The notes under the pieces are model-generated. The model was not told the origin of the DNA and did not search any database. It saw only the letters and a program-made list of their open reading frames with translations. From a bacterium (GTDB taxonomy: Bacteria > SAR324 > NAC60-12): a DNA stretch of 27,047 bases. Location: the NCBI GenBank assembly GCA_965233585.1, contig CBDDTI010000058.1, positions 1 through 27,047 on the forward strand, read 5' to 3'. How positions within the stretch are numbered: the stretch's first letter is position 1; every line of letters starts with the position of its first letter. Made by a program: the position numbers and the translations under genes. This document shows, one piece after another, positions 510 to 20,782 of this stretch.

Positions 510-1071
510 GATGACATCAGCGGCACATTAGGTGTTTTCGGCCCGATTTCATCTCGAATTTTAAAAATGTGACCTAAATTCATCTAAAAACATCCTGATG
601 CGACCTCGTTGCAAGCAAAATGGCAACTGATGTAACCTAAAACAACCTAAACGCGCCTAAATGCATCCTTCTTTCTTGTGCGTGCATTGCTTTGTCTAAT
701 GCACGCATTGGTTCATCTAATGCTGGCACAAAATTTTTTGTGCCTGCATTGTTTCATCTAATGCAAGCATTGCTTCATGTAATGCAGGCACAAAATTTTT
801 TGTGCCTGCATTGCTTTGTCTAATGCAGGCATTGCTTCATCTAATGCACGCACAAAATTTTTTGTGCGTGCATTAAAAAGTCTGGTGCCTGCATTGCTCT
901 GTCTAATGCTCGCATGAAAAAGTTTATGCTGGCATTAAATTTGTTACGCCTGCATCAAATTTTGTCATGCTGGCATTACTTTTCCTAATGCACGGACCTC
1001 AAATTTAACGCACGCGTAAAAAATTTAGATGTAGGCACTTGAATGTTAGTGGTCCATAGTCGAGTAAATGT
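510..1071 (+). repeat. Left terminal inverted repeat
   Basis: 510-694 is the exact reverse complement of 20598-20782 (185 bp). Similarity continues with substitutions and one indel to ~1071/~20285. Confidence 0.95.
679..1016. repeat. Subterminal phased array of TGCnnGCA palindromes (20-21 bp period, 62 bp higher-order unit)
   Basis: Motif starts at 679,700,721,741,762,783,803,824,845,865,886,907,927,947*,968,989*,1009* (* = degenerate). Confidence 0.9.
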
Positions 1072-1134
1072 GAGAAAAACAAAGTATTGCAAACAATATC
1101 AGGTTTAGTTTTTTATCATTTACCTTGTATTTTT

Positions 1135-2690: not shown

Positions 2691-3377
2691 TTACGTGCGC
2701 ACGTTGTACGCCCTTGTTGGCTGTTCGTCGGGGAAAATATGACTTCTTAATCGAACTGAATTATTTTGCTGCTGATGAAAATCAAGCAGTAAATAGCTAT
2801 AAGGTCTTTCGCTGGTTGCTGTCACATATGCTTCGTTTAGCAGATGCACGTTACCCGGAAACACCTGTTTAGCTAGGTTTGAGACGGCGCTACGGTCTCT
2901 CGGATTGTTGAATAAAATCATGTATTGTGAGTTGATGCTGAGCATTCTGAGCTCGCTTTTGGCGCTAAACATGTTCTGACACAAAAAAACTGTCAGACAA
3001 TTATAATGATGTGTTAAAACCGTGAAAAAGTGCTTTAGCACTGATCCTACTTCATCAAGAAAATCATCGAAAATCACAATCTTCGGAAGAGTTCTAGGAA
3101 ACATTTCCAGTATATCTTTCATGTCTTCAACTGATTCCGGCATGGATGAAAATTTGCAAAACCTTTTCTCTCGCGCGTCATTGTTCATCCACCGCTCCAT
3201 ATCAGCATAGGCGGGTTGAAATTCTTTGTAAAATAAAATCATACATTCCGGAACAGGCGAGCACATTATGCCTCTATTTTCAACCAGTTTTTTTAGCCAT
3301 GACGTTTTTCCGCAAGAGGTGGGGCCAACCGCGAGTAAGTTGGATGGAAGCTTAAAACGCAAATCAAAACCGTCCAT
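2691..3377 (-). CDS. A32-like (FtsK-HerA) genome-packaging ATPase
   Basis: Walker A GPTSCGKT, Walker B IVIFDD, plus LCQN and LRMLSINSQY motifs. First ATG is at 3377 (the ORF track starts at GTG 3395). Confidence 0.93.
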   Translation of the reverse strand: MDGFDLRFKLPSNLLAVGPTSCGKTSWLKKLVENRGIMCSPVPECMILFYKEFQPAYADMERWMNNDAREKRFCKFSSMPESVEDMKDILEMFPRTLPKIVIFDDFLDEVGSVLKHFFTVLTHHYNCLTVFLCQNMFSAKSELRMLSINSQYMILFNNPRDRSAVSNLAKQVFPGNVHLLNEAYVTATSERPYSYLLLDFHQQQNNSVRLRSHIFPDEQPTRAYNVRT

Positions 3378-3438
3378 GTTTTTGTTTTTTACCACAGAAA
3401 AAAGGACAAAATATTGTCATCAATTTTTAACAATATAT

Positions 3439-6400
3439 TTATTTGATTTTCTTACATTCATGTTTATGGCATTTTTTTATGTTACAACTTCCCAAGGCCA
3501 AAGTGCACTTTCCACAAGAAAGCACATAACGTTTGGTGTCCATGGCGGATAGAGCAATTTTTCGTTGGTAGGTTGTAGATATTCTGTGATTCTTTGATTT
3601 AATATTTACAAGTGGCTTATATACCATGGATGATTCGGTTAAGCATTTTTTATAATCGTCAAAAGTCAAGTGATTCTTAATACTAGTTTTTTTGAGGCCC
3701 TTACAAATTTTCTTCACGCTGGCTCCTCTGGTTTTCAAGTCTTTGACTGTCATGCTGTAACATTTCGGCCTCAAGCCAATAAATTCTGTGATTGCTGCTT
3801 TTCCTTTTAGCTCGTCTTTAAAGTAAAACAAATGGTTGGCTCTGCTATCGTCAAACAACTCATGATCTTTATCGTATTTAGAGAAGTCAAACATGTGTTC
3901 CATTTTTTTCAACTTTTCAACTAGATTTTGGCATTTTACTTGAAATAGAAACGAGTCTGTGTCTGAAAAGCATAGCTTTAGATTCTCCGTTCCAAAGTAA
4001 CGTCTAAATTTGTCGTATGATCGATACATGTAAAGTTTGGATAGTTCCAAAATTGCAAATCCTACCGCCAGAGGTTTCTTCATTTCAATCACGGCCGGTT
4101 TTTTCATGACAGCCACAAGGTTTTCGTTTATGACTTTTATATTTGAAACATGTTGACCAACGCAAGTCTGTCTTAGTTTCTTTTCATTGTGACACAACAC
4201 GACTTCGATGTAGTTTCGCGCGTTCTCTGCAAACAAAAAAATAATTGTTATTGTTAAAAAAATAGGGTCAATACTTTTTTACCTATAAATTTGCCGAACG
4301 TTGAATTGGCAAACAACTTGAAAAGACGTAATTCAAAATCAGTTTTCGCCTCTGACCTCAATTTTGTAATTTTTGTGATGAAGTTTTTCAAAAAGTCTTT
4401 TTGCTCAAACTTGACCGCTCGTCTGATTTTCGTAAGCTTCAGTCCTCGCCTCAAATAATACTTTAAATTATCTAACAAGACGACATATTTACGACGTGGG
4501 TAGAATGTGGCGAGAAGTTTTCGCGAGCTGTAACGTTTGTTTTTGTAATCTGATGGGCAGTGCTTCTTCAAAAGTTGTTTGTTAAACGGTGAAAGATCTT
4601 CATAGTTTATTGTGTCAGTGTAAGGGGCCAGAGGAAATTGATCATCTCTCTGCAAATAAAATATTTAATTTTTTTTCTAACCATAGGTGCTTTACAAAAA
4701 AAATTTTTTACCGTGTGATATTTTTCAGGATAGAGTAAATCCACTTCGAAAGCATAGCCGATCTTGCTTTGTGAAGGTAATTTTAAAATATCGGCATCTG
4801 TCCATGTTTTTATCTCCTTTTTTGACACCCACTTAAAATTACCTACCGGCAGCATGTGTGTCTCCATGCTGCCGTAAAGATTATTAGCTGAAATGTAATG
4901 TAATTTTAATCAATCTTTTTCAGTGCTTTATAAAAATATTACCATCTACATATAGTAAATGCTCGCCATTGACTTTTGGATCGGCCTGACCCATTGCATG
5001 TCTAGTGGCTATAAAACTTTGCCCCCCTCTAATGCCGCGTGTAAAAAACTGTTCCATTGCCGGATCGTGAAACAAGTCTAACGAGCCTGGTGGTTTTGAC
5101 ATTAAATCCGGTCTAATCTCTTCTTCATCTTTTCTTTCTTCATTCTGAAACATTTTAAGCATAATGTCGAAAGACAAGCCGGGTATGCCTAAATAGTAGA
5201 TTGGATCCAACTCGAAGTGTGACATCACCATTTCTCGATACTTTACAAAAATCTCGGCAAGCAAAATTACGTCCAGTCCGCAGTATAACTTCATGTAATC
5301 GTCCATATTTTTACAATTGAAGAACTTGAACACGTCAAAGCCGTGCTTATGATCTTCTGACGAGATGCCGACTTCGTTCAATCTTGAATAGAAAGCGTCT
5401 TTTTCCGGGAATTGACTGTTTTTAATCGAGTCATATGAAGAAAAGTATTCATACGGATACACTCCTTTTCTTTTCAATAATTTTAATCCTTTAGGCTTTT
5501 GTCGCGCCCACAACCTCTTGTAAGGCTCAAATTGTTTAAGAATAGGGAAGGTAAACGTCTCATCCTTGCACAAATCTGTCATGAGCGCTTCCAGACTAGA
5601 CGGCACGTGCTCTAGAGAATCTCTAATTTGAAATTTTCCAATAGTGATTGTCCGGAACTTTTCCTGGTTGCTTGCCATAAGATCCGACGCTCTATCCAGT
5701 TTTTCCACCAGTAGATTTATGTCATATCTAGAAATAAAAATTTATTTACTTGACTCTCACCAATCGAGATTTTTAAATTTCTACATCTGATACAAAAGAA
5801 CAATACTCACCCTTTCGCGTTGTGAAAGTATATAGGTGTTCTGAAAGGCCCCTGTCGTTGTAGATTGCAAATAGAATGTGCTGCTTGAAGAATGTTTCCG
5901 GTGACATGATCATGATCGACCACTTTTTTATATAATCGCGAGAACGGATCAAATTCTTTTTTGCAAATATGACAAAACGTAGCAGCGTGGTACTCTTTCC
6001 ATTCATTCTTGCTCGCTATAATTTGTGATGTGTTTCTGAAACGTTGCTTTCGAGCTTCCACTAGTTTTTCAAAATGATCCAGCTTTGATAAAAAATTTTC
6101 AACAGCGTCTTTTCCACTGTATGTCTCTTGATAAAATACTTCATTCTCCGAATCCACAAAACAAATTGAATAGCCGCAAGCCAGATGTTTGCTTAGTTCA
6201 ACAGAACCCGACACTTGACATCCGCATGTCACCCACACTTTTCCACATGTTTTACATTTTTCTGCTTCTTGCTCAGATTTTTCCATAAAACACTCAAAAT
6301 CAGCAAATCCTACCACTGGTGCTTTGAATGCATTTCTCTGTTTATCAAAATTCAAAACACTGCCTTTTTCAGGATAAATCACCTCTTGTTTATCTTTTTG

Positions 6401-7006
6401 ACAGATCTTCTCGTGTGCTTTTTGTTTCTTGAGCGAACGAAAATCCCTCAAACAGCTGTCACAAAAATAAAACTGACTTCTACTCCCTCTTTGTCCACCC
6501 CTTATGGATTTTCGGTTGTTCAGAAAGCCATTTAAATTAGTAATGGTGAAAAAGTGGTGCTGATGCTCAAGGTCTTTTAAGTTAGAAATACCATTTACGT
6601 CAATGCTGTCTTTATCGGCTGATGAAATTTGACAATCGCTTTTAATCATTAGCAGATTTAACGTATTTTTGTTCCTATTTTTCTCACCAGTTCTATTTGA
6701 GAAGATGTCTAGAACACTCAGTTGATATTCTCCTTCAAAAAGAACTCTTATACGCAGGGGTAGGTGCTTGTTTATTTGCACAAATTTGCTGATCTGGCTA
6801 AACTGTAGGGGAAAGGTCAGACCTTGCAAGTTAAATTTCTTTACATACTCTTTTGGAATTTTTTCGCAATGTCTGATGTTCGCCGTTTCCGGCCAAAGAT
6901 GCCCTATCACACAATATAGGAAATTTTTCTCATCATATTTTTTGTTCCATATAACACTTCGAGACTTTAATAAATACTCAGGCACGTTTACAGAGTCACT
7001 ATTCAT
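3439..7006 (-). CDS. polB: Protein-primed family B DNA polymerase, 5 exons (7006-5811, 5727-4943, 4887-4712, 4649-4283, 4226-3439), 1103 aa spliced
   Basis: ExoI FADFEC. Splicing restores ExoII FHNAKG|YD, motif A YVD|ANNLYG, YPEKYHT|RDDQFPLAP and motif B KLFANSTFGKFI|EN. Motif C SDTDSF and a later KCY motif are present. Exons sum to 3312 nt, in frame. Confidence 0.93.
4227..4282 (-). other. pPolB intron 4 (56 nt, GT-AG)
   Basis: ATAG|gtaaaa...tttgtttgcag|AGAAC joins FGKFI to ENARN. Confidence 0.88.
4650..4711 (-). other. pPolB intron 3 (62 nt, GT-AG)
   Basis: CACACG|gtaaaa...ttatttgcag|AGAGAT, phase 0. Confidence 0.85.
4888..4942 (-). other. pPolB intron 2 (55 nt, GT-AG)
   Basis: GATG|gtaata...catttcag|CTAATAAT restores the catalytic DANNLYG. 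Confidence 0.9.
5728..5810 (-). other. pPolB intron 1 (83 nt, GT-AG)
   Basis: AAAGG|gtgagt...ttatttctag|ATATGAC restores HNAKGYD. Confidence 0.92.
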
Positions 7007-7008: not shown

Positions 7009-7641
7009 TTAAAAAATGCTGCTACAGTCATAAATCAAAACACTGCAACTTTGGAGTCGAGCAAATCGCCAACCAGAGCCTCTAGTTAACAAATCGTCTT
7101 CCCTCTCTACTGATCCATTCAAAAGAGACTTTATCCTTTTACGAATTTGTCTATCACTTTGATATCTGTTAACTACAACGCCCTTCGACCTTAATGTGAA
7201 AGAATCGATGTCGATGCTTTTCCCCTGATTTTCTTCACTTAATCCGAGTATTTCGTAATCCGCTGTGATTGTTATACTTATCCGACAAACCACTCGATGA
7301 GTAAATTGACTTTTTAAAAGATTAAACACATTCTCGACCGTTTGCTTTGAGTTGCAAAAATCTTGCAAAGAGCTATTTAAATGCGACAGTTCTTGTTGAA
7401 AAATACAAACTTTGTTGCTGACAGCTCCTTGCCTTTTTGAAAATACTTTAGATTCCTCGTGATTTGAGTCAACGTGAAGCAATAACTCTTTTTTATCTTC
7501 ATATTTACTTTCGCAAAAAGGACACTTTTTTAAATCGCGGCCTCCCTGTTTTGAGTGATTTCCGTGTTTAAATTTTTGATGATAGGCAAGTCGACTTTTT
7601 CTGGAAAATGATATCTGGCACGTTTCACACTTGTGCGTCAT
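7009..7641 (-). CDS. Two C2H2 zinc fingers plus a GSGW-containing segment, likely the N-terminal part of pPolB
   Basis: Fingers CETC..HQKFKH and CPFC..HVDSNH. C-terminal RGSGWRF matches the GSGW motif of Polinton pPolB N-termini. The stop lies 2 nt before the pPolB ATG. Confidence 0.75.
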   Translation of the reverse strand: MTHKCETCQISFSRKSRLAYHQKFKHGNHSKQGGRDLKKCPFCESKYEDKKELLLHVDSNHEESKVFSKRQGAVSNKVCIFQQELSHLNSSLQDFCNSKQTVENVFNLLKSQFTHRVVCRISITITADYEILGLSEENQGKSIDIDSFTLRSKGVVVNRYQSDRQIRKRIKSLLNGSVEREDDLLTRGSGWRFARLQSCSVLIYDCSSIF

Positions 7642-10890: not shown

Positions 10891-11013
10891 AGATGCGAGT
10901 GAGCATCCGCGGCAACAGCCGCGGCAACGGCAGCGACTGCAGCTTGGCTGCAGAATAGAAATCAGATTCGCGGGTTTCAATCAACTTGAACATTATAAGC
11001 AATTTTGTATTTT

Positions 11014-11499
11014 CTAATAAAGCTCCGTTTGCAAACGATTAACTAAATGCTTGACACGGTTTTCATTTTCGCGTAAATTATTTAGATTAAAAAAAGTACG
11101 AAAGTATTGAGGCTTCGCGTTTGCGCATGCATTGACAAACATGCAAAATGCTGCAGCATACCACCCGCAAAATAAAGAATCGAAAGCTTGAATTGGGCGG
11201 TCTAGAACGTGTCTTATCCTGCCGCAATTTACCCATTTTGTTAAAAAATTGATGAGGTGGTGATTATAGGTAGGCACGGGTAGTGCATAGCTGTCAAAAT
11301 AATACAAATAGTTTTGCTTATTGATGAAAAAGGCGATGAAATGACTGCCAGGATGGGTTGAAACTGAAAGATTGATGATGGCGCAACAACAAGTGTTCCA
11401 CAAGTCGGTGGGTATCGTGTCCACAGCGAACGTGCCAATGAAATTCCGACAAAGAGGTGATAAAAACCGATCCAGAAATAAGTTGCTTAATCCGGCCAT
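11014..11499 (-). CDS. Adenain-like cysteine maturation protease
   Basis: Catalytic His (PGSHFIA), Asp (YFDSY), and oxyanion Gln plus Cys (IQAFDSLFCGWY). Confidence 0.93.
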   Translation of the reverse strand: MAGLSNLFLDRFLSPLCRNFIGTFAVDTIPTDLWNTCCCAIINLSVSTHPGSHFIAFFINKQNYLYYFDSYALPVPTYNHHLINFLTKWVNCGRIRHVLDRPIQAFDSLFCGWYAAAFCMFVNACANAKPQYFRTFFNLNNLRENENRVKHLVNRLQTELY

Positions 11500-12833
11500 T
11501 ATCGTTCTTCGGCTCTAATAACTTGACCGTTCTCCTCTATTTTTATTCCGGAATTGAAAATGCTATAAGCCAGCAGGTAGATGGGGTGTGACTGCGCTGT
11601 TTTAAAGCCTAATTCCAAGTCCAACTTGCCTTTTTCGTCAGGGTGGATGTGAAAACTGTTGCAACGATCGGGGGTCAAATCAGCAGTTAGAAAACATCTT
11701 CCTTTCTTAAAAACCCCCGGCGAAATGTCGCATGAACTATTTGAAATGCCGAAACCCGTGCTGTCGTACATGTGTCTGTACAGGTCCATGTAGTTATCAT
11801 CATCAAAATCAGGCTGAAAAGCTTTTGGGAAAACGCATTGTCCGTTTTTAATAAGATTGAAATAATTTAGATCAAAGTGTTGAAAGTTGAACGGATTGAA
11901 CTTGTTGTCGTGCGTCAAAGCCTGGTTGTGAATTAGGGTAAAAATAACTTGTTTGGGCAAAATTTGTGAGGCAATATTTGTGATGGTGTACGATGTCACT
12001 CCAGCCGGAATCACATAAATTTTTAACTGACTTAGCTTAAAGGGTAGATAGCAGGGTTGTTGAGACATTTTCATCCTAAAATTTTTTCTCTGCTGCTCAA
12101 TTGGTAAAACTTTTCTCATTTTTAACTTTAAATCTTTCAAAACGATTTTAAAAGATTTGTCATCCTCAGCGTGAAGAATACCAAAAGCTGGATTGTTTCT
12201 AATGAGCTTAATCTTGATGTCAACATTCGGTGGCATATACTTATCTGTATACATAATATCCGCCCCCAATCGAGAGCAAAAATAGACTTTTTTGCCGTTA
12301 AGTATAATATTTCGACGCTGCATTAAACGCTGATTTATGCCAGGCTCGCTGGCACCGATATCATTTTCTTTCTCTTCAAAATAACCTTCGGCTCTTAGCT
12401 GACTCTGCTTGGTCTCTCTATCAAACGACAATTCAGTTTGAATAAAGTTTTTGAAAGGGTAGGAATTAGCCGTGCTCAGGTCACAGACTTGAGTACCATT
12501 AATGTAGATTTCAACCGCACTAAATAGATTGCTCGCAAAATTATTGACTAGAAAGACGCGGTCGTCAGGTCCGACATTTTCATCCTTCGTTGTCTTGACA
12601 ACAAAATGTCCTATTAATCTGGTCTGATCCAAGATGATGGAACACTCTTCGTCTCGCGGAATAATAAATTCGATCGGTCCGGAGTTTGACACGCTGGAAA
12701 CGCTGTTGTAGACTACATCGTTGCCTTTTTCAAGGCTTATATCGACCCCGAGCGGGGCGTGCAGATCGAGAGCTTGTTCAGTTAAATCATCTTGCTCAAA
12801 GCCGAGACCGGCAATGCCACCCCTTTCAGTCAT
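11499..12833 (-). CDS. Major capsid protein 1 (double jelly-roll, PY-like)
   Basis: 444 aa with GPIEFII, LFSAVEIYING, KYMPPNVDIKIKL, NPFNFQHF and ADLTPD motifs typical of Polinton MCPs. Confidence 0.9.
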   Translation of the reverse strand: MTERGGIAGLGFEQDDLTEQALDLHAPLGVDISLEKGNDVVYNSVSSVSNSGPIEFIIPRDEECSIILDQTRLIGHFVVKTTKDENVGPDDRVFLVNNFASNLFSAVEIYINGTQVCDLSTANSYPFKNFIQTELSFDRETKQSQLRAEGYFEEKENDIGASEPGINQRLMQRRNIILNGKKVYFCSRLGADIMYTDKYMPPNVDIKIKLIRNNPAFGILHAEDDKSFKIVLKDLKLKMRKVLPIEQQRKNFRMKMSQQPCYLPFKLSQLKIYVIPAGVTSYTITNIASQILPKQVIFTLIHNQALTHDNKFNPFNFQHFDLNYFNLIKNGQCVFPKAFQPDFDDDNYMDLYRHMYDSTGFGISNSSCDISPGVFKKGRCFLTADLTPDRCNSFHIHPDEKGKLDLELGFKTAQSHPIYLLAYSIFNSGIKIEENGQVIRAEER

Positions 12834-12902
12834 TGTCGGAAATGTGTGCCAGACCGTAGTTTTCTGCTTTTCTTAAAAAGAGGTCAAGTCAATAACAGGT
12901 TT

Positions 12903-14249
12903 TTAATATTTCACTTTGGTAACTTGAAGGTTGTTGTCGATGGAAATGGCGGCATTATATGTGGCGTAGGAAATCAAAGTATATGGTTGATCGAGAGGCG
13001 AGTTGAAAGTCAAGTCTAATTCTAAATTTCCAGGTACTCCAACGTGATTATGAAAAGATAGGCATTTATCAGGGGTCAAGTCAAACGCAAGAAACATCTG
13101 GCCATTAACAAAAGCGTCAGGTGTAATACGATTCCTACCACCAACGTTACTTTGAAAATGGTCATATAATTCCATATAATCCCCGCTCGGCAAGTGACAT
13201 TCTAGAAGACGAGGCAAGAGGGGTCTCCCATTGTTTTTTAAAATTACTGATGATAACTCGACATGATTAAAGTAAAAGGGAAATCCGTCGTTTGAGCCTT
13301 TTGCAAATAAATCGCTTTTTACTACGCAAAAAATAATTTGTTGCGGCAACAACTCGCTATTGTTGATGTGATTTGCAGAGAAACAGCGGGAACCTGCAGG
13401 CATTAGATAATGCTTCATCTGTGTGTCTTTGTAGGGTAGAAAAAAAGGCTGTCCTTTTTGCAGTTTAGCATTTAGCTTATTTCGCACGCGCTCGTGCGGC
13501 AGCACTTTTCTCATGCGGAGTTTTAATTCTTTCAAACGAATGCGAAAGGTTTTGTTTGGATTATTTTGAATCACACCAAAACATGTGTTAAACCTGCGCA
13601 ATACGATAGTGATTTCAACGTTTGGAGGTAGATATTTGTCAGTGTGAAAAATATCAACAGGCAAAGTCGAGCTAAAATAAACTTTTTTGCCATTCATTAT
13701 TCTCTGTCGATTCTCCGCGACACATTGGCACATATACATTTTACCAGACGCGTCAACCCTGTCATAACATTTGCCGTGGTGCGTTCGACAAAAGCCTTCG
13801 GTCCGCCCAACATTTGCTTTAACATTATTATCGTAGGACAAGAGAAAATCTATGTGATGCTTGTATGTATAAGAAAGAGGAGAACTTAAATCTGCGATTT
13901 GAGTGCCGTTAAGGTGGACTTCAATTTGTGAGAATAGAGCAGTGCAATAATGGTTAGTAATGGTTGTCGTATCAGTTGGTCCTACACCTTCGTCGCTGTC
14001 AGTCTTTACTACAAAGTGTCCCTCTAGCCTTGTCTGATTTAAAACAAAAGCACATTCCGGGTCGGAAGGAATTGAAAACGTGACATCTTCTAAATCTTCG
14101 ACAGGAGTCACGCTACTATATAACACAGTACGACCGGATATTAAATCTTTGTCCTCATAGGGAGTTGCATGCGCATTTAAACTATCACCCTGCAATTCAT
14201 CGAAATCCACAGTTAATCCACCGACACCACCATTAATCAACGATGACAT
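12903..14249 (-). CDS. Major capsid protein 2 (paralog)
   Basis: 448 aa, colinear with MCP1: LFSQIEVHLNG, DKYLPPNVEITIVL, PFYFNH, AFDLTPDKC. Confidence 0.9.
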   Translation of the reverse strand: MSSLINGGVGGLTVDFDELQGDSLNAHATPYEDKDLISGRTVLYSSVTPVEDLEDVTFSIPSDPECAFVLNQTRLEGHFVVKTDSDEGVGPTDTTTITNHYCTALFSQIEVHLNGTQIADLSSPLSYTYKHHIDFLLSYDNNVKANVGRTEGFCRTHHGKCYDRVDASGKMYMCQCVAENRQRIMNGKKVYFSSTLPVDIFHTDKYLPPNVEITIVLRRFNTCFGVIQNNPNKTFRIRLKELKLRMRKVLPHERVRNKLNAKLQKGQPFFLPYKDTQMKHYLMPAGSRCFSANHINNSELLPQQIIFCVVKSDLFAKGSNDGFPFYFNHVELSSVILKNNGRPLLPRLLECHLPSGDYMELYDHFQSNVGGRNRITPDAFVNGQMFLAFDLTPDKCLSFHNHVGVPGNLELDLTFNSPLDQPYTLISYATYNAAISIDNNLQVTKVKY

Positions 14250-14806
14250 TTCTAGACAACAAGAGACACGTTACTGTGACAAATATAAAGTTTAGTTGCA
14301 CAATTATTCTTATTGATGAGGGGCCGTTATCCTTACATAAAGATGTACCGCGAAAAGTTTTTAGTAATTTTACGGTAGTGAGAAAACAATACGTCTACAC
14401 TATTTTCAAGACTCGAAAAAACGACAAATCATATCATGTCAATATTACCAAAGTGCCTTCACGAGCAGATGTAAAAATTTCGCTAAGTCTGCTAACGGAC
14501 ATTATCAGCAATCGTTTTTATGTGAAATCGTGGGAAATAAACAATTTAACTTGTTCTTTCCGCACCAACTTTGAGATACCGCTGCCAGACGTTTTTGATA
14601 AACTTAAAAAGGAAAATTGCGTAAAAAAAATACGCTTTAATCCGGAACGTTTTCCGGGCATGTTTGTGACATTCAAAGCCAACACGGTTTTGATTTTTTC
14701 AACTGGCAAGATGGTAATAATCGGGGCCAAGACCGAAGATGCCGCCAATCATAGTTTGGATTTAATTATGAAATTTTTAAATCAATATAAGAACGAGCAA
14801 ATGTAG
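14243..14806 (+). CDS. TBP: TATA-box-binding protein-like factor
   Basis: The second half INNLTCS...FNPERFPG...TVLIFSTGKMVIIGAKT matches the TBP repeat. The first half VTNIKFS...FSNFTVVR..VYTIF..HVNIT is a degenerate first repeat. Confidence 0.88.
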   Translation: MTFLDNKRHVTVTNIKFSCTIILIDEGPLSLHKDVPRKVFSNFTVVRKQYVYTIFKTRKNDKSYHVNITKVPSRADVKISLSLLTDIISNRFYVKSWEINNLTCSFRTNFEIPLPDVFDKLKKENCVKKIRFNPERFPGMFVTFKANTVLIFSTGKMVIIGAKTEDAANHSLDLIMKFLNQYKNEQM

Positions 14807-14821
14807 ACTCGCGTTTCAGTT
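14786..14821 (+). promoter_or_regulatory. Candidate TATA plus initiator for the TFIIB-like gene
   Basis: TATAAG at 14786 and arthropod-type Inr TCAGTT (A at 14818), a -32 spacing, 29 nt before the ATG. Confidence 0.55.
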
Positions 14822-14846
14822 TTGCATTGCATGTGAAGAAATAAAC

Positions 14847-15545
14847 ATGGCTTGTTTTGTTAATTTCAACAAAACCTGTTCTCATTACAATATTGTAGAT
14901 GATTTTTCAAATGGGTGTGAAGTATGTACAGATTGCGGACTCGTGATGCATGATCAAATTTATGCTCCGTACGACAATCGGCTAGAGTCGTTCAATGTGG
15001 CTTGTGACAAAAACAATTTTTATGACGAGACAATGCAGAGGGTTTGCTATAAGTGCAACATCGAATGCTCAGATTTAAAACGCTCCATCTTTAAAAAATG
15101 GAACGCTAGTGGGAAAAAAAGGAAAAAAGGAGTTTGTTTAGAAAGTTTGGCGATAATGTGCATCTACACCGCGCTAATAGAGTCAGAGGTACCGCGGCCA
15201 ATGAAAGATTTATGTCTCATAACAGGCGTCAAGCAGGACAAAGTGTGGCAATATCTCAAAAATGATGACTCTTTCTACAGCCCCAATTTAATGTGTGAAT
15301 ATTTTCTACATTCATTAAATCTAGGCTACAAGGAGATAAAGGAAATTAGAGAGAAAGTAAAGCAACACGAAAAAAAGTTTGTTTTTTCTCCAAAAACACT
15401 AATTGCTGCATGCGCGTATGTCTTTTTAAGAGAAAAACGAAGTAGGATTGATTGTGAAAAACCTAAAAGCCTATCGCATCTAGCTAGGCAATTAGGAGTT
15501 AGTCCGATGGCCTTGAGCAGGTGCGTCAAAAAAATTGAAAACTGA
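14847..15545 (+). CDS. TFIIB: Transcription initiation factor TFIIB-like protein
   Basis: N-terminal Zn ribbon CSH..DFSNGCEVCTDCGLV. Cyclin repeat 1 LAIMCIY..EVPRPMKDL and cyclin repeat 2 SPKTLIAACAY...LARQLGVSPMAL. Confidence 0.88.
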   Translation: MACFVNFNKTCSHYNIVDDFSNGCEVCTDCGLVMHDQIYAPYDNRLESFNVACDKNNFYDETMQRVCYKCNIECSDLKRSIFKKWNASGKKRKKGVCLESLAIMCIYTALIESEVPRPMKDLCLITGVKQDKVWQYLKNDDSFYSPNLMCEYFLHSLNLGYKEIKEIREKVKQHEKKFVFSPKTLIAACAYVFLREKRSRIDCEKPKSLSHLARQLGVSPMALSRCVKKIEN

Positions 15546-15551
15546 TAAAGC

Positions 15552-15986
15552 ATGCGATTCCACCGTGGTCCGTCCATACAAGTGGGGGCGGGATTAGGTT
15601 CAATTTTTAGCAGTCTTTTCCGGTCGTTGGTTCCGGTGGCTAAGGGTGCCGCAAAGACAATCGGTAAAATTGCAAAAAACGGGGGTGTGCGTTCAGCGGG
15701 TCGATATTTAAAAAAAGAGGTGGGACGTGCAGCCATTGACTCCGCACTGGAAGCCTTGGACGGTAAGGCAGTTGGGGCCGCTGCAAAAAAGAGATTAAAA
15801 TCCGCAACTAGAAACATTCTACTGGCGGGTAAGGCAAGTAGGTCTGCACGAGCGCCCAAGAGACCGCTTAAGAGAAAAAATAGCACGCACGCAGTAGGAA
15901 GCAGCAAGAGAAGAAAAACAAAACAAAAACCGTTGTTTTATGTTGACGACACAGACGACGACTACGACATCGAAGATGATTACTAA
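15552..15986 (+). CDS. Small basic virion core or membrane-active protein
   Basis: QVGAG followed by the amphipathic LGSIFSSLFRSLVPVAK, a K/R-rich body and an acidic tail; a pattern common in Polintons. Confidence 0.75.
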   Translation: MRFHRGPSIQVGAGLGSIFSSLFRSLVPVAKGAAKTIGKIAKNGGVRSAGRYLKKEVGRAAIDSALEALDGKAVGAAAKKRLKSATRNILLAGKASRSARAPKRPLKRKNSTHAVGSSKRRKTKQKPLFYVDDTDDDYDIEDDY

Positions 15987-17055
15987 ACACGAATTTCTAA
16001 AGGCCTACACTTCGCCCGGCTCACCTTTTGCCTTTTCATCTGCAAACCGCGTTTTTAATCATTTTAATGGGTCCATACCAATAAATAAAATAAAGAAATG
16101 GCTGCAGGCATCAGACACCTATACTCTGCATCGGCAACCTAGAGCCCCAAAACCGAGGAACCCAACTTATGTTTATTACAAAAGATATCAATTCCAAATA
16201 GACTTGATCGAAATTGGAAAAATGGCGAAAGCAAATGACAATTATCGTTACCTGCTGACAGCGATCGACATTTTTTCAAGGTACGCCTTTGTTGAGCCTT
16301 TAAAAGACAAGACAGCTTTGGTTTTTTTAAAAGGATTTAAAACCATTATAAAAAAAGCCGGACAGCTACCGCGAAAAATACTGGCTGACAGAGGGTTAGA
16401 GATAAAAAATAAATTTTTCAAAGACTACTGTCGTCGTAATGGGATTACTCTTTTACACAGCGACAACTTTTTGCACGCGCCGTTTGTAGAAAGATTTAAC
16501 AGATCGCTAAAAAGTCTGATGTTTAAATATATGACATCCAGAGGCACAGACCGATTTATCCACGTGCTACAATCTTTAGTAAAGACATATAATTCGCGTG
16601 TGCATAGAATGATTGGCATGAGTCCGGCCGAAGCGGAAAAAGCAAAAAACGCATCAAAAGTCAGGACAAAACAAGAAGAGGTTTATGGAAAAATACAGAG
16701 GCGACCGCCTAAATTTAAGAAAGGTCAGACGGTCAGAATAAGTAAATATAGAGCACAATTCGACCGAGGTTACGATAAACAATTTACGGAAGAAATTTTT
16801 AAAATCAGGCGGGTGTTTACTCGTTTACCCATTCCTACATACGAGTTAGAAACTTTAGATGGTGACGAGTTAATAGAGGGGAATTTTTATGCTAATGAGC
16901 TGACTCTTGTTAAGCCACCAAAAGTATTTGACATTGAAAAAATAGTGAAAAGGAAGAAGGATAAAAGAACCGGGCAGAAGCTAGTGTTGGTGAAGTGGAA
17001 AGGCTATAAAAACCTTAGCTGGATTGCTGAAGATAGCATTATTGATCGGGCGTAA
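15976..17055 (+). CDS. int: Retroviral-like DDE integrase with a C-terminal chromodomain-like region
   Basis: FQIDL (D), LADRGLE (D), VERFNRSLK (E). C-terminus FDIEKIV...LVKWKGY..SWI. Likely ATG is 15976; an upstream in-frame ATG lies at 15940. Confidence 0.95.
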   Translation: MITKHEFLKAYTSPGSPFAFSSANRVFNHFNGSIPINKIKKWLQASDTYTLHRQPRAPKPRNPTYVYYKRYQFQIDLIEIGKMAKANDNYRYLLTAIDIFSRYAFVEPLKDKTALVFLKGFKTIIKKAGQLPRKILADRGLEIKNKFFKDYCRRNGITLLHSDNFLHAPFVERFNRSLKSLMFKYMTSRGTDRFIHVLQSLVKTYNSRVHRMIGMSPAEAEKAKNASKVRTKQEEVYGKIQRRPPKFKKGQTVRISKYRAQFDRGYDKQFTEEIFKIRRVFTRLPIPTYELETLDGDELIEGNFYANELTLVKPPKVFDIEKIVKRKKDKRTGQKLVLVKWKGYKNLSWIAEDSIIDRA

Positions 17056-17060
17056 CAACT

Positions 17061-18653
17061 ATGAAAGGAGGTCATCTTATTTATTGCATCTCGAATGCAA
17101 GCACCGATTGTTTCGAGAACACACTAACGCGTTTCAACAATGTATTACCTCAAAATTTGGAATTAGATGATAGGAGAGATTGGGAAGTAGGGGTTGTAGC
17201 TTTTGGTCTGCATTTAAATGTGAAAGAAGATTTTGTTTTTGACGTGATCCAGGTTAAATCCGACATTGTGTCGACAAGTCCAAACGAGAATTCTCGCATC
17301 TTATGCGTAGCCGATTTACCTTCGAACAAAAAACAGAAATATTTTTACCATAGTTTAAAAAACATACGATATTATCCTATTCAAATCACCTCAATAAAAA
17401 CAGTGGGCATCGAGTTTCTAGACGCGTCCGACAAACTTTTAAAACTAAAAACAGGACAGCCGAGTTTAGTTTTACTTCACTTGCGAAAAACAAAACGTGC
17501 AATGTCTTATTCGACTAAACATATTCGCGTCGACTCAAAAATGAACGACGACATAAAACCTGCGCAGAAAAACAACAATTTTGAGGTACATTTGAGCCAC
17601 CCGATTGATTTGAATGCAGGCGCTAAAATAGCTTTAGCCGACATCTCCTTTCCAAATCGGATTGATAGCATTCCGTTAAGTGTTTTTGATAAGAAAATCA
17701 AAGTAAGTACAGACCCGTTTGAGCAAGAAATCGAGGTCGAACTTGGGCAGCAAAAAACATTTGCTTACTTATTACGTCGCCTAAACGAGGGAAGAGACAA
17801 CGTAGTATGTAATTTTGTCGAATTTGATCAAGTGGGGAAAACAAAAGAATCGACAGACATGTTTTTCCGAGCGATTTACACAGGGCCAACGACGTGCGAT
17901 GATGAATTTAAATTGCATGAGGTAAAAGTGCAAATACCGCCAGAATTTAAAAACATTTTGGGAATCAAGGAAGAATTTATAGTCATTGGACCCGAAAGAA
18001 AAAAATTTATATCACAACAGCCTATGCGGAATCCAGACCCGACAGAATCAATCCCACCCGTTAAAATCAAGGTAGCAATCGAATCAATGCAATTTTGCTT
18101 TTCGATTGAGAAGAAAACTATCAAAACAACGAATGAATTAATTGAGGCCATGTATAATACTATGAGTGAAGATTTGCAAGGACTTATTCGAATTTCCGCG
18201 CATGAAAACCGTTTCAAAGTAGAGCGGAGCGGCAATCAGTACAAACGCTCCTTGGTAGTAAGGTTAAAAGTACCACATGAAATAAGATTATTGCTAGGAA
18301 TAAGACAAAACGAGGATATTGTTTTGACGGATGGAAGCGGACAATTCATAAGTCACGATCGACTTGATCCGCACTATCTATATCCCGGAGTGATGATCTG
18401 CTATGCCAATTTTGTCAATCACTCTGTAATTGGAGACGAGTTTTACCCGGTATTAAAGGTTATACCATTAAATAGAGGCGAGGAAGAAGACAATTATGTG
18501 ACAACACATTTCGATAATTTAGAATACGTAAAGTGTAATACAAGCCGTCTGGATTTATTGCACTTTCAGTTAAAAAGACTTGACGGAGAATCGATTAGTT
18601 TTGAAACCAATGAAAAAATCATGATGAATTTAGCCATTCAAAACCCGAAATAA
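17061..18653 (+). CDS. Minor capsid (penton) protein with two tandem jelly-roll-like domains
   Basis: Domain 1 (aa ~1-145): SNAS..NT...F...LP..LEL...WEVGV...LLHLRK. Domain 2 (from M148): FEVHL..PIDL...IALADISFP...VIGD...PVLKVIP...LDGESISF. Confidence 0.82.
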   Translation: MKGGHLIYCISNASTDCFENTLTRFNNVLPQNLELDDRRDWEVGVVAFGLHLNVKEDFVFDVIQVKSDIVSTSPNENSRILCVADLPSNKKQKYFYHSLKNIRYYPIQITSIKTVGIEFLDASDKLLKLKTGQPSLVLLHLRKTKRAMSYSTKHIRVDSKMNDDIKPAQKNNNFEVHLSHPIDLNAGAKIALADISFPNRIDSIPLSVFDKKIKVSTDPFEQEIEVELGQQKTFAYLLRRLNEGRDNVVCNFVEFDQVGKTKESTDMFFRAIYTGPTTCDDEFKLHEVKVQIPPEFKNILGIKEEFIVIGPERKKFISQQPMRNPDPTESIPPVKIKVAIESMQFCFSIEKKTIKTTNELIEAMYNTMSEDLQGLIRISAHENRFKVERSGNQYKRSLVVRLKVPHEIRLLLGIRQNEDIVLTDGSGQFISHDRLDPHYLYPGVMICYANFVNHSVIGDEFYPVLKVIPLNRGEEEDNYVTTHFDNLEYVKCNTSRLDLLHFQLKRLDGESISFETNEKIMMNLAIQNPK

Positions 18654-18701
18654 AACACGCATTGTATTGGAACACAGCAGAATATAATTTTGTCTGTATT
18701 T

Positions 18702-19692: not shown

Positions 19693-20284
19693 CTTTATTG
19701 CCAAAGAAATTTCTAGAAAAGACTAGAAAATGGAAAAGACTGGAAAAAATCGTGGTCAGTTTAAAAAATTCATTTAGGAAAAAAATTAAAAATTGCATGA
19801 CAAAATACCGACAAACCTAATTGTGTTATTAATGATGTGAATTTTCTGGGAAATGGGGCTTTCTCTGGAATGGGGTAAAATTCGGAAAAGAGAAGAAGAA
19901 CAAAAGAAAGACATCTGCTTTGCACAAAAACTATCTAGAAAACTCCAGAAAAAATCGCGGTCAGTTCAAAAATTTTTTTGTAGAATTGTAATTGCATGAC
20001 AAAATATCAAGGAACCAAACAGTTTTGCAAAAAAAAAAATCAAATGTTTCAACGACTTGTGTGCAAAATTAAAAAACACAATTGAATAAATTAAGGATAA
20101 AAACGATTTGTGCATAAAAACAAAAAAAAAAAAAAACACGATGGAATAAATTAATGATTAAAAATTACTTGGTGATTGAAAACATTACAGCAATAAAAAT
20201 TACTAAAGTCTTTTAAAATTTTTAATTAATAAGAACATTGCAACATTGACTATAACTAAAGAGAAAAACTTTGCTCTTTTTATT

Positions 20285-20782
20285 ACATTTACTCGAGTAT
20301 GAACCGCTAACATTCTAATGCCCTGATCTAAATTTTTACGCGTGCGATAAATTTGAGGTCCGTGCATCAGGAAAAGTAATGCAGGCATGACAAAATTTGA
20401 TGCTGGCGTAACAAATTTAATGCCAGCATAAACTTTTTCATGCTGGCATTAAACGAAGCAATGCAGGCACCAGACTTTTTACGCACGCACAAAAAATTTT
20501 GTGGCTGCATTACATAAAGCAATGCCTGCATTAGATGAGACAATGCAGGCACAAAAAATTTTGTGCCAGCATTAGATGAACCAATGCGTGCATTGGGCAA
20601 AGCAATGCACGCACAAGAAAGAAGGATGCATTTAGGCGCGTTTAGGTTGTTTTAGGTTACATCAGTTGCCATTTTGCTTGCAACGAGGTCGCATCAGGAT
20701 GTTTTTAGATGAATTTAGGTCACATTTTTAAAATTCGAGATGAAATCGGGCCGAAAACACCTAATGTGCCGCTGATGTCATC
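20285..20782 (-). repeat. Right terminal inverted repeat
   Basis: Reverse complement of 510-1071, lacking about one 62-bp array unit. Confidence 0.95.

What the first reader, a model, noticed from the sequence alone, without database searches (positions are those of the whole stretch)
14243..15545. Polinton encoding its own TBP + TFIIB pair: a candidate minimal viral pre-initiation system
Seen: adjacent, co-oriented, intact TBP-like (187 aa) and TFIIB-like (232 aa) genes sit within the structural block, and the element has no RNA polymerase. Established: TBP and TFIIB nucleate Pol II initiation. Chloroviruses encode both without an RNAP, and beta/gammaherpesviruses use a TBP-like protein to direct host Pol II to late promoters. 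These genes are not part of the canonical Polinton core. Inference: a two-component module redirecting host polymerase to capsid promoters, and a possible link to Nucleocytoviricota transcription factors. I know of no functional description but cannot check novelty.
Basis: partly seen in the sequence, partly recalled or inferred. Interest (0 to 1): 0.93.

Follow-up and report, generated by a model that had tools for sequence, protein, structure and literature searches.

The report
Polinton with its own TBP–TFIIB pair
A 20-kb virus-like transposon carries its own small versions of two basic transcription start factors, TBP and TFIIB, and a large group of related elements keeps the same gene pair, so it probably steers the host's RNA polymerase to the element's own genes.

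Summary
Observation confirmed. ORF 14243-14806 is a two-repeat TBP saddle (Pfam TBP 59 bits; AF2 pLDDT 91; the top 44 Foldseek PDB hits are all TBP entries). ORF 14847-15545 is a shortened TFIIB: a C-H-C-C zinc ribbon plus two cyclin folds (family profile vs human TFIIB 8.8e-12). About 16 profile positions stand where human TFIIB has a 64-residue B-reader/B-linker.

Both genes lie in a TIR-bounded Polinton (about 510-20782) with intron-split pPolB, rve integrase, ATPase and no RNA polymerase.

The pair is not a sporadic capture. The same assembly holds 41 adjacent, co-oriented TBP→TFIIB pairs in at least 6 lineages (31-100% identity), 39 of 41 intact for each gene, with dN/dS 0.13-0.28. An unrelated metagenome contig has the same protease-capsid|TBP-TFIIB-ORF-integrase order at 32% identity. 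The TBP belongs to a large, unnamed family of 165-190-aa TBP-like proteins separate from canonical TBPs.

Function is inferred, not shown. An oriented TATT-type box (TATTTAAG/TATTWAA) lies upstream of capsid-like and packaging genes, and canonical TATAWAA upstream of others. This is a post-hoc lead that fits a herpesvirus-like late-promoter switch. A link to giant-virus factors could not be tested.

The open literature searched holds only a figure-legend label "TBP" in one MELD-virus paper. Verdict: new variant of a known kind.

The parts
14243..14806 (+). TBP-like gene (187 aa), two-repeat saddle with a diverged N-terminal repeat
   Evidence: Pfam TBP 59 bits; PDB 3.2e-15; AF2 pLDDT 91.2; Foldseek top 44 all TBP entries
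14847..15545 (+). TFIIB-like gene (232 aa): C11-H13-C27-C30 zinc ribbon, short disordered linker (about residues 39-56), two cyclin folds, C-terminal HTH
12903..14249 (-). capsid-like gene CAP448, head-to-head with the TBP gene (start codons overlap by 7 nt); capsid identity not verified
11499..12833 (-). capsid-like gene CAP444, a paralogue of CAP448 (39-40% identity)
11014..11499 (-). adenain-like protease candidate (161 aa)
   Evidence: No Pfam hit for the window copy; the L021 homologue scores 20.7 bits on Peptidase_C5, cut-off 21.3
15552..15986 (+). ORF144, a small basic protein always placed after the TFIIB-like gene
15940..17055 (+). rve integrase with C-terminal chromodomain
   Evidence: Pfam rve 1.2e-10, Chromo 1.1e-4
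17061..18653 (+). ORF530, conserved, function unknown
3439..7006 (-). [quoted passage not shown] TTTCTAG at the junctions)
   Evidence: Pfam DNA_pol_B_2 6e-7; junction sequences; the same pieces in other lineages
2691..3395 (-). packaging-type ATPase candidate
   Evidence: Weak Pfam ATPase_2, AAA_28 and Adeno_IVa2 hits; conserved at 61-91% identity across lineages
7009..7641 (-). C2H2 zinc-finger protein ZNF210, conserved in the clade
510..1079 (.). left terminal inverted repeat
20277..20782 (.). right terminal inverted repeat
14332..14339 (-). TATGTAAG, 90 nt upstream of the CAP448 ATG, inside TBP codons L-H-K. It is a one-base variant of the TATTTAAG box found at this place in lineages B, C, D1 and D2.
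12902..12908 (-). TATTAAA, 75 nt upstream of the CAP444 ATG, overlapping the CAP448 stop codon
8665..8672 (-). exact TATTTAAG, 88 nt upstream of ORF281
14139..14145 (+). TATTAAA, 104 nt upstream of the TBP ATG (also in lineage B; at -112 in D1 and D2)

Best explanation
The two genes are a conserved, element-encoded TBP/TFIIB pair and form a core module of a large Polinton (Maverick) clade. Most likely the TBP-like saddle binds and bends a TATA-like box in the element's DNA. The TFIIB-like protein probably docks on its conserved C-terminal repeat and on flanking DNA through its cyclin core and C-terminal helix-turn-helix. Its zinc ribbon would then recruit the host's nuclear RNA polymerase II, since the element encodes no polymerase. 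This would give the element promoter selectivity of its own, possibly for TATT-type boxes upstream of the capsid-like and packaging genes, as with the beta/gamma-herpesvirus late-gene TBP mimic. Shown here: homology, folds, conservation, synteny, purifying selection and absence of a polymerase. Inferred: DNA binding, pairing of the two proteins, which polymerase is used and which promoters are served.
For: Folds and homology. The ribbon ligands C11, H13, C27 and C30 are invariant in 21 of 21 sequences, and Zn_Ribbon_TF matches 21 of 21 members. A C-terminal HTH is detected in 12-14 of 21 members. In the TBP C-repeat, F137 is invariant and F152 nearly invariant; both align with the FPG and LIF-SGK phenylalanines of an archaeal TBP. 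Conservation: 41 TBP-domain matches in the 12-Mb assembly, all inside Polinton copies. TBP and TFIIB hits fall in the same 35 contigs, out of 67 contigs with any hit to a window protein. All 41 pairs are adjacent and co-oriented with TBP first, and the gap is 39-106 nt in 40 of 41. The TBP ORF is intact in 39 of 41 and the TFIIB ORF in 39 of 41. Identity to the window copy falls to 38-40% (TBP) and 29-31% (TFIIB). For unsaturated lineage pairs dN/dS is 0.17-0.28 (TBP) and 0.135-0.26 (TFIIB). Independent metagenome contig L021 has protease(-), capsid-like(-) | TBP(+), TFIIB(+), small ORF(+), rve integrase(+) at 32% TBP identity; hhalign of the A1 profile against its TFIIB-like protein gives probability 97.1, E 5.5e-11, 213 columns. 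L021's TBP sits in a distant branch of a 151-row family of short TBP-like proteins, which a 99%-support branch separates from 14 canonical-type rows (FastTree; 9 hits shorter than 150 aa were dropped). Pairing: complex prediction gave 'weak support', score 0.46 against a best of 3 controls of 0.00. That mark was reached by 116 of 157 solved complexes and 2 of 215 mismatched pairs. At 0.60 or under, only 18 of those 157 solved complexes and both passing mismatches reached it. The runs agree in at least 85% of contacts and the partner pLDDT is at least 82. TBP-TFIIB complexes are solved, so the pass may come from memory. Promoter lead: in 8 representative elements (134,319 bp) 13 of 18 exact TATTTAAG occurrences lie sense-oriented within 150 nt upstream of a conserved gene start, and 1 lies antisense; these windows are 4.9% of strand space. 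The box lies upstream of both capsid-like genes, ORF117, the ATPase and ORF144, and never upstream of TBP, TFIIB, INT, PRO or POLB_N. In TBP codons opposite the CAP448 promoter, the same xxC-TTA-AAT-A nucleotides are kept in lineages B, C and D despite saturated dS.
Against: There is no expression or binding data, and no RNA run holds the stretch (a blank only). The ribbon-to-core linker has about 16 profile positions where human TFIIB has 64 residues (47-110), and it is disordered in the model (pLDDT below 50 for residues 39-56). A canonical B-reader/B-linker is therefore absent, and canonical start-site selection and DNA opening are doubtful. The TBP N-repeat is so diverged that neither Pfam nor hhalign detects it; the model lacks helix H1 and has a very short N-terminal stirrup. 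The complex prediction is only weak support. The motif was found post hoc among about 7,900 8-mers, and the lineages are related, so the counts are not independent. The window's own copy has TATGTAAG, not TATTTAAG, upstream of CAP448. The capsid identity of the neighbouring genes is unverified.
Confidence: 0.6

Rival explanations
1. Decoy or shut-off factors. The pair competes with host TBP/TFIIB, binding host promoters or sequestering host factors or Pol II, and so damps host transcription or the element's own expression. It would not start transcription itself.
For: The B-reader/B-linker region needed for productive initiation is missing or very short. The N-terminal TBP repeat, the TFIIA side in cellular TBP (recalled), is strongly altered.
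Against: The zinc ribbon, whose known role is polymerase recruitment (recalled), is invariant in its ligands. Both DNA-facing parts are conserved under purifying selection. The oriented boxes upstream of element genes fit activation better than global competition.
Confidence: 0.13
2. DNA-architecture or targeting role. The TBP/TFIIB-like complex marks or bends DNA for the neighbouring integrase, as TFIIIB does for Ty3 integration, or for protein-primed replication at the TIRs.
For: The order TBP-TFIIB-ORF144-integrase is invariant in all lineages examined and in L021. Ty3-TFIIIB structures appear among the fold matches (rank 36).
Against: Gene order in a compact virus is weak evidence. No tRNA or Rfam RNA gene lies in the window. 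No target-site duplication or target motif was found at the ends. A retained polymerase-recruiting ribbon would not be needed for such a role.
Confidence: 0.07
3. The pair serves another polymerase: host Pol III or Pol I (a Brf- or Rrn7-like role), or the polymerase of a helper virus, as poxvirus VITF-3 serves the viral polymerase.
For: TFIIB-like factors exist for every multi-subunit polymerase (abstract of PMC12917281). Brf1 and Brf2 entries are among the fold matches.
Against: The best sequence matches are TFIIB: human 8.8e-12 against 0.14 for the TFIIIB 50-kDa subunit. There is no Brf-type C-terminal extension, as the protein ends right after the second cyclin fold. The genes to be expressed code for proteins. 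No helper virus is known for such elements (recalled).
Confidence: 0.07
4. Recently captured host genes drifting neutrally.
For: TBP and TFIIB are of cellular origin in the end. The preprint version of Starrett et al. lists TBP among 'homologs of host proteins' (10.1101/697771, passage read).
Against: At least 6 lineages down to 29-40% identity keep both genes intact, adjacent and in the same order, with dN/dS 0.13-0.28. An unrelated contig has the same synteny. The family is separate from canonical TBPs on the tree.
Confidence: 0.02

Closest known systems
TBP/TFIID-like and TFIIB genes of giant algal viruses that lack an RNA polymerase (chloroviruses such as PBCV-1; prasinoviruses)
   Same: A DNA virus without an RNA polymerase encodes both a TBP-type and a TFIIB-type factor, presumably to use host Pol II. 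The PBCV-1 list TFIIB, TFIID, TFIIS, VLTF2, VLTF3 is from a passage of PMC7019647. That PBCV-1 has no polymerase is recalled. Earlier scan notes e1-5312141 and e1-5586784 describe such prasinovirus sets.
   Different: Here the genome is about 20 kb instead of 150-400 kb, integrates through an rve integrase, and carries no TFIIS, VLTF or capping genes. The TFIIB is shortened, with no B-reader/B-linker-sized segment. The TBP belongs to its own family of 165-190-aa proteins. No close relative was found in IMG/VR.
Beta/gamma-herpesvirus viral pre-initiation complex (TBP mimic BcRF1/ORF24/UL87 on TATT-box late promoters)
   Same: A virus-encoded TBP-fold protein directs host Pol II to late (structural) genes through a non-canonical TATT box that cellular TBP binds poorly (passages of PMC4893493). 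Here TATTTAAG/TATTWAA boxes lie upstream of the capsid-like and packaging genes, and TATAWAA upstream of others.
   Different: The herpesvirus mimic is a large, barely recognisable TBP fold that contacts Pol II itself and works with five other viral proteins, with no TFIIB homologue. The Polinton protein is a clear Pfam TBP with a true TFIIB homologue beside it. Binding to the box has not been tested here.
Poxvirus VITF-3 (atypical TBP/TFIIB-like heterodimer); ASFV TBP-like and TFIIB-like factors (the ASFV factors are recalled)
   Same: A virus-encoded, much diverged TBP/TFIIB pair acts as a two-subunit promoter factor (abstract of PMC12917281).
   Different: Those pairs serve the virus's own multi-subunit polymerase in the cytoplasm. 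This element has no polymerase.
Cellular TBP paralogues and TFIIB-family factors (TRF2/TLF, Brf1/2, plant pBrp)
   Same: The same two folds, specialised for subsets of promoters.
   Different: These are mobile-element genes, much shorter, found only inside Polinton copies in this assembly, and separated from canonical-type TBPs by a 99%-support branch.
'TBP' gene drawn in a MELD virus with adintovirus-like PolB (Starrett et al. 2021, Fig. 5 legend)
   Same: A TBP-like gene in a Polinton-related element had been labelled before (PMC8502044, passages and section 3.4 read; the figure itself is not held).
   Different: It is a label only. The text gives no TFIIB partner, conservation analysis or function. 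The term is absent from the one supplementary file held. I could not tell which virus carries it or whether it belongs to this family.

Membership tests
TATA-binding protein (Pfam PF00352) | TBP repeat scoring above the curated cut-off | tested here: met
   59 bits against 22.9 for residues 98-182. All 41 copies in the assembly are over the cut-off.
TATA-binding protein (Pfam PF00352) | Two tandem repeats forming a saddle | tested here: met
   AF2 pLDDT 91.2 with two beta-sheet/helix halves. Foldseek aligns about 190 columns to full TBP cores, TM 0.59-0.72. The N-repeat is not detectable by sequence, and helix H1 is missing in the model.
TATA-binding protein (Pfam PF00352) | Two pairs of DNA-kinking phenylalanines | tested here: inconclusive
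   C-repeat pair present: F137 invariant, F152 nearly invariant, both aligned to an archaeal TBP. In the N-repeat, F55 is invariant at the analogous strand end and position 40 is F/Y/H in most rows. This equivalence rests on the model's secondary structure and recalled yeast numbering, not on a superposition.
TATA-binding protein (Pfam PF00352) | Binds TATA-box DNA | not testable with these tools
   Needs EMSA or SELEX.
TFIIB family | N-terminal zinc ribbon (C/H-C-C ligands) | tested here: met
   C11, H13, C27 and C30 are invariant. Zn_Ribbon_TF matches 21 of 21 members, best 2.4e-8; the window copy itself scores 22.2 bits, below the cut-off of 29.
TFIIB family | Core of two cyclin-like repeats | tested here: met
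   Profile positions 57-223 align with human TFIIB 111-283, whole-sequence E 8.8e-12. Ten helices in the AF2 model. All 29 Foldseek matches at E<=0.001 are TFIIB/TFB/Brf entries; TM is only 0.31-0.39, probably because domain orientation differs. The Pfam TFIIB repeat matches at E<=0.01 in 7 of 21 members and scores above its cut-off in L021 (32.4 bits against 23.6).
TFIIB family | B-reader and B-linker between ribbon and core | tested here: not met
   About 16 profile positions against 64 residues in human TFIIB. The segment varies in the alignment and is disordered in the model.
TFIIB family | Binds TBP-DNA and RNA polymerase II | tested here: inconclusive
   Complex prediction with the element's own TBP: weak support, 0.46 against a best control of 0.00, possibly from memory of solved complexes. 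Polymerase binding cannot be tested here.
Polinton/Maverick | [quoted passage not shown] | tested here: met
   DNA_pol_B_2 6e-7; rve 1.2e-10.
Polinton/Maverick | Terminal inverted repeats | tested here: met
   510-1079 against 20277-20782, 93-98% complementary.
Polinton/Maverick | Morphogenesis module: double and single jelly-roll capsid proteins, packaging ATPase, adenain-like protease | tested here: inconclusive
   The ATPase gets weak Pfam hits. The protease is supported only through the L021 homologue (20.7 bits, cut-off 21.3).
Polinton/Maverick | 6-bp target-site duplication (recalled) | tested here: not met
   No matching flanks at the TIR ends. The exact termini are uncertain by a few bases.

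The most novel reading that the evidence does not exclude
A large, mostly unannotated clade of Polintons may run a self-contained two-protein pre-initiation system, the smallest known in any virus. In this reading the TBP prefers TATT-type boxes embedded in coding DNA upstream of capsid and packaging genes, while canonical TATA boxes, read by host TBP, lie upstream of the TFIIB-like gene, ORF530 and the zinc-finger gene. That would give a herpesvirus-like early/late switch in a 20-kb integrating element. Such a module in Polinton-like ancestors could be the source of, or a sister to, the TBP/TFIIB genes of Nucleocytoviricota.
Probability: 0.2. Interest if true: 0.85.

Novelty: new variant of a known kind. 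Interest (0 to 1): 0.62.

Why it matters
Polintons are usually assumed to depend entirely on host transcription, and their accepted core is replication, integration and capsid genes. A conserved TBP+TFIIB module shows that one large clade carries its own promoter-recognition apparatus in only about 1.3 kb. This offers a very small natural system for asking what TBP and a linker-less TFIIB can do on their own. It offers a testable promoter code (TATT against TATA boxes). It also bears on how large DNA viruses acquired their transcription genes, which matters for the nuclear-escape view of giant-virus origins. In practical terms, at least 137 clusters of unnamed 165-190-aa 'TBP' proteins in metagenome catalogues are probably Polinton genes, not cellular TBPs.

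Tried and rejected
- IMG/VR scans: the TBP profiles A2 and A3 found no relative. TFIIB profile A1 found only 2 distant giant-virus matches (24% and 42% identity over partial stretches).
- The single metagenome scan gave 3 loci. L022 was not analysed beyond a motif scan.
- Expression: no RNA holder listed for window 11000-19000.
- hhalign of the N-half against the C-half of the TBP family found no repeat similarity (probability 0.35).
- Capsid-like proteins: profile against PDB gave nothing below E 0.27, PHROGs gave 0 families for 8 proteins, and 86 homologues carry no informative name.
- No target-site duplication at the ends.
- No tRNA gene and no Rfam family in the window.
- The 'TAA inside' flag for 15 TBP matches was the natural stop codon read through, not a break.
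- The AATATAAAG just upstream of CAP448 inside TBP codons N-I-K was dismissed as a promoter, because lineages E and F have N-V-K there.
- ESM Atlas neighbours (TBP and TFIIB clusters, partly labelled Nucleocytoviricota) are feature-based leads and were not used as evidence of kinship.
- A taxon-labelled phylogeny against host TBP/TRF, TFIIB/Brf and giant-virus homologues could not be built: the libraries carry no taxonomy, 10 clusters looked up gave only two generic names, and no host TBP lies in this partial assembly.
Papers holding Polinton or Maverick together with TBP, TATA or TFIIB gave only the Starrett et al. legend. The other hits concern giant viruses, mirusviruses or unrelated uses (passages checked in PMC12220804, PMC10675990 and 10.1101/2022.05.25.493380). 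Subscription journals and Repbase reports are not covered. bioRxiv supplements are closed. Figure 5 of PMC8502044 is not held.
- Earlier scan notes hold nothing on Polintons with TBP/TFIIB.


Full report
THE OBSERVATION. The window is a whole 27,047-bp contig (C58) of a 12-Mb, 747-contig assembly. Earlier scan notes describe that assembly as a SAR324-like bacterial bin (not tested here). This contig, however, is eukaryote-type DNA. It has short GT...AG introns in the polymerase gene and retrotransposon fragments on both flanks (aspartyl protease / DUF1758 at 2-583, DUF1759 gag-like at 23747-25387). ORFs 14243-14806 (+, 187 aa) and 14847-15545 (+, 232 aa) are intact and 40 nt apart.

They lie inside an element bounded by terminal inverted repeats at 510-1079 and 20277-20782 (300 nt at 98% and 152 nt at 93% complementarity). 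On the minus strand, from the left end inward, the element holds ORF391, ORF117, an ATPase, a family-B polymerase in four exon-like pieces, a C2H2 protein and ORF281. A variable 2.4-kb stretch follows. Then, still on the minus strand, come a small protease-like gene and two paralogous 444/448-aa genes. On the plus strand lie TBP, TFIIB, ORF144, an rve-chromo integrase and ORF530. None of the 21 ORFs scanned has an RNA-polymerase domain.

WHAT THE TWO PROTEINS ARE: TBP. The C-terminal half of the first protein is an unambiguous TBP repeat (Pfam 59 bits against a cut-off of 22.9; archaeal and eukaryotic TBP structures at 3e-15 to 1e-7). The N-terminal half is not recognisable by sequence (hhalign of the two halves gives probability 0.35). 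With a 25-sequence alignment, AlphaFold2 gives a confident two-lobed saddle (pLDDT 91.2). All 44 Foldseek PDB matches at E<=0.001 are TBP entries, aligned over about 190 columns. In the model the N-lobe lacks helix H1 and has a much shorter loop at the stirrup position. The C-lobe keeps the FPG stirrup and the LIFS-GK strand, with F137 invariant and F152 nearly so.

WHAT THE TWO PROTEINS ARE: TFIIB. The second protein is weak as a single sequence (below both Pfam cut-offs; human TFIIB 3.9e-5). A 21-sequence family profile matches human TFIIB at 8.8e-12, ribbon to ribbon (profile 16-40 against human 22-46) and core to core (57-223 against 111-283). The ribbon ligands C11, H13, C27 and C30 are invariant. 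Zn_Ribbon_TF matches 21 of 21 members, the TFIIB repeat 7 of 21, and helix-turn-helix models match the extreme C-terminus in 12-14 of 21. The AF2 model (pLDDT 75.5) has ten helices after a disordered stretch at 39-56, and all 29 Foldseek matches at E<=0.001 are TFIIB, TFB or Brf chains. One defining part is absent. Human TFIIB has 64 residues of B-reader and B-linker between ribbon and core. This family has about 16 poorly conserved positions there.

NOT A SPORADIC CAPTURE. The assembly holds 41 TBP-domain matches, all over the Pfam cut-off and all inside Polinton copies, and 43 pieces matching the TFIIB-like profile, two copies being in two pieces each. I ran tblastn with 17 window proteins. 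TBP and TFIIB hits fall in the same 35 of the 67 contigs that hit anything, always with ORF144 and the capsid-like genes. All 41 pairs are adjacent and on one strand, with TBP first. The gap is 39-106 nt in 40 of 41. The TBP ORF is whole (180-217 aa) in 39 of 41 and the TFIIB ORF (232-252 aa) in 39 of 41 (the broken ones are on C224, C514 and C670).

There are at least six lineages. Against the window copy, identity is 84/85%, 58/45%, 41/36-41%, 40/31% and 40/33% (TBP/TFIIB). Where dS is not saturated, dN/dS is 0.17-0.28 for TBP and 0.135-0.26 for TFIIB. Other Polinton families in the same assembly, with a polymerase about 30% identical, have no TBP domain. So the module is specific to a clade.

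OUTSIDE THIS ASSEMBLY. There are 31 TBP-like and 23 TFIIB-like proteins in the 90% clusters, none with a name. Six TBP/TFIIB couples share the same longest-contig length, which suggests they share contigs. The one metagenome scan returned three contigs. L021 (4.1 kb) reads protease(-), 444-aa capsid-like(-) | TBP 169 aa(+), TFIIB-like 224 aa(+), small basic ORF(+), rve integrase(+). L023 reads protease, capsid-like, then the start of a TBP. L021's proteins score TBP 56.9 bits, TFIIB repeat 32.4 (cut-off 23.6), rve 49.8 and Peptidase_C5 20.7. Its TFIIB-like protein matches the family profile at probability 97.1.

An exhaustive profile search of 1.84 billion representatives found 4,601 proteins at E<=1e-3, 1,305 at <=1e-10 and 15 at <=1e-30. 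Most of the best 150 are 165-190-aa proteins matched end to end. Longer, canonical-type TBPs match only through the C-repeat, in two or more stretches. These short proteins share the signature NIKxS ... NF ... F ... NHxNITK ... IDNIT ... E(K/R)FPG ... GK.

I built a FastTree of 165 rows: 25 from alignment A2, 139 of the 148 new hits (9 under 150 aa were dropped) and L021. The 14 rows I labelled canonical-type, because they matched in two or more stretches, are split from the 151 short ones by a 99%-support branch. The window's clade (24 of 25 A2 rows) and L021 lie far apart within the short family. Two distant points of the family have the same Polinton synteny, so the family as a whole is probably Polinton-borne. 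That is an inference.

HOW IT PROBABLY WORKS. Both DNA-facing modules are retained: the TBP saddle with the C-lobe phenylalanines, and the C-terminal HTH of the TFIIB core. The ribbon, which in all known TFIIB-family factors recruits the polymerase (recalled), is retained too, and the element has no polymerase. I therefore read the pair as a minimal promoter-recognition and polymerase-recruitment module for host Pol II.

The asymmetry of the TBP fits a dedicated partnership. In cellular complexes the C-lobe is the TFIIB side and the N-lobe the TFIIA side (recalled). Here the C-lobe is conserved and the N-lobe is remodelled.

Complex prediction gave only 'weak support': score 0.46 against a best of 3 controls of 0.00. 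The mark was reached by 116 of 157 solved complexes and 2 of 215 mismatched pairs. At 0.60 or under, only 18 of those 157 and both passing mismatches reached it. The runs agree in at least 85% of contacts and the partner pLDDT is at least 82. TBP-TFIIB complexes are solved, so this may reflect likeness only. The missing B-reader/B-linker means initiation cannot be fully canonical. The protein may tether the polymerase and leave start-site selection to host factors, or it may act as a competitor (rival 1).

A PROMOTER LEAD (POST HOC). CAP448 and TBP are head to head, and their start codons overlap by 7 nt in lineages A, B and C. Each gene's promoter must therefore lie in the other's coding sequence.

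A k-mer screen of the 150 nt upstream of 12 conserved genes in 7 elements picked TATTTAAG: 11 of 78 windows against 13 of 2,100 random windows, p 6e-12 before about 7,900 tests. In 8 representative elements (134,319 bp), 13 of the 18 exact copies lie sense-oriented in such windows, which are 4.9% of strand space, and 1 lies antisense. The box lies:
- 87-101 nt upstream of CAP448 in B, C, D1 and D2 (the window has TATGTAAG at -90);
- 88 and 105 nt upstream of CAP444 in D1 and D2;
- 34 nt upstream of ORF117 in E, F and F2;
- 43-44 nt upstream of the ATPase in F and F2;
- 93 and 128 nt upstream of ORF144 in E and C.
It never lies upstream of TBP, TFIIB, INT, PRO or POLB_N.

Opposite the CAP448 box, the TBP codons read xxC-TTA-AAT-A in B, C and D although dS between these lineages is saturated. 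E and F have TCT-TTT-AAT-AC there, which gives TATTAAAA on the capsid strand.

With the looser TATTWAA, 28 of 139 copies are sense-upstream (p 1.9e-10). This also covers CAP444 in A and B (-75) and the TBP gene in A, B, D1 and D2. Canonical TATAWAA (18 of 119 sense, p 2e-5) lies upstream of the TFIIB-like gene, ORF530 and ZNF210, and never upstream of CAP444, CAP448, ORF117, the ATPase or ORF144. L021 has TATTTAAA 66 nt upstream of its capsid-like gene.

The lineages are related and the motif was chosen after looking, so this is a lead and not a result. It matches the beta/gamma-herpesvirus arrangement, in which late promoters carry a TATT box that cellular TBP binds poorly and a viral TBP-like protein recognises (passages of PMC4893493).

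COMPARISON WITH WHAT IS KNOWN. Virus-encoded TBP and TFIIB homologues are known in three settings:
- giant viruses, including polymerase-less chloroviruses (PBCV-1 list in a passage of PMC7019647; absence of a polymerase recalled);
- poxvirus VITF-3, an atypical TBP/TFIIB heterodimer for the viral polymerase (abstract of PMC12917281);
- the herpesvirus TBP mimic.

For Polintons I found one trace. The legend of Fig. 5 of Starrett et al. [quoted passage not shown] No paper in the searched library holds Polinton or Maverick together with TFIIB in a relevant sense. None holds them with TBP or TATA beyond that legend. Subscription journals, Repbase and closed supplements were not covered.

VERDICT. 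The mechanism, own promoter recognition for host Pol II, is the best-supported reading but remains inferred (confidence about 0.6). The proposed kinship with giant-virus factors is open. I rate it a new variant of a known kind (virus-encoded TBP/TFIIB), with interest 0.62.

Noticed in passing
window 14332-14339(-), 12902-12908(-), 8665-8672(-), 14139-14145(+); G000 contigs C47, C98, C593, C93, C30, C79, C224: Oriented TATT-type boxes (TATTTAAG/TATTWAA) lie upstream of the capsid-like genes, ORF117, the ATPase and ORF144. Canonical TATAWAA lies upstream of the TFIIB-like gene, ORF530 and ZNF210 and never upstream of the former set. The CAP448 box is embedded in TBP codons with synonymous sites kept.
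   Followed up: partly
window 11499-12833(-) and 12903-14249(-): There are two paralogous 444/448-aa capsid-like genes (39-40% identity) in lineages A-D. Lineages E and F and contigs L021 and L023 have a single copy. No match in Pfam, PDB or PHROGs, so the fold is unknown.
   Followed up: partly
window 3439-7006(-): The polymerase gene is in four ORF pieces separated by short AT-rich gaps with GTGAGT / TTTCTAG-type ends, so it is probably intron-split and not broken. The same split recurs in other lineages.
   Followed up: partly
G000 as a whole: A bin described by earlier notes as a SAR324-like bacterium holds at least 35 contigs with this Polinton clade, plus a second Polinton family (polymerase about 30% identical; e.g. 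C315, C493, C581, C606, C657) that has no TBP or TFIIB. These are eukaryotic contigs mis-binned with a bacterial genome.
   Followed up: partly
G000 C30, C79, C224 compared with the window: In lineages E and F the replication block (ZNF210-PolB-ATPase-ORF117) is inverted relative to the capsid/TBP block compared with lineages A-D.
   Followed up: no
window 1135-2310(-): ORF391 contains three tandem copies of a roughly 33-aa basic unit (LPSFRGKRKN..D.DES.IP.KRRKQVSKKT) after a C2H2-like finger. It is poorly conserved between lineages (28-53% identity).
   Followed up: no
window 15552-15986(+); L021 2804-3184(+): A small, very basic protein with a G/A-rich N-terminus always follows the TFIIB-like gene. 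It overlaps the integrase start in the window and has no family match. It may be a virion core or membrane-lytic protein, which is a guess.
   Followed up: no
window 672-1025 and 20330-20620: The TIRs contain internal short repeats and a 53-nt hairpin-like inverted repeat (698-750 / 781-833).
   Followed up: no
protein P0029 (ENA contig of 10,665 bp): One 187-aa predicted protein matches both the TBP-like (38% of the query) and the TFIIB-like (59%) protein. It is probably a frameshifted or mis-called fusion across the short gap.
   Followed up: no
window 2-583(-) and 23747-27047(+): Both flanks carry retrotransposon-type gag/protease fragments (DUF1759, DUF1758, Asp_protease_2), which points to a repeat-rich eukaryotic locus. 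No target-site duplication was seen.
   Followed up: partly
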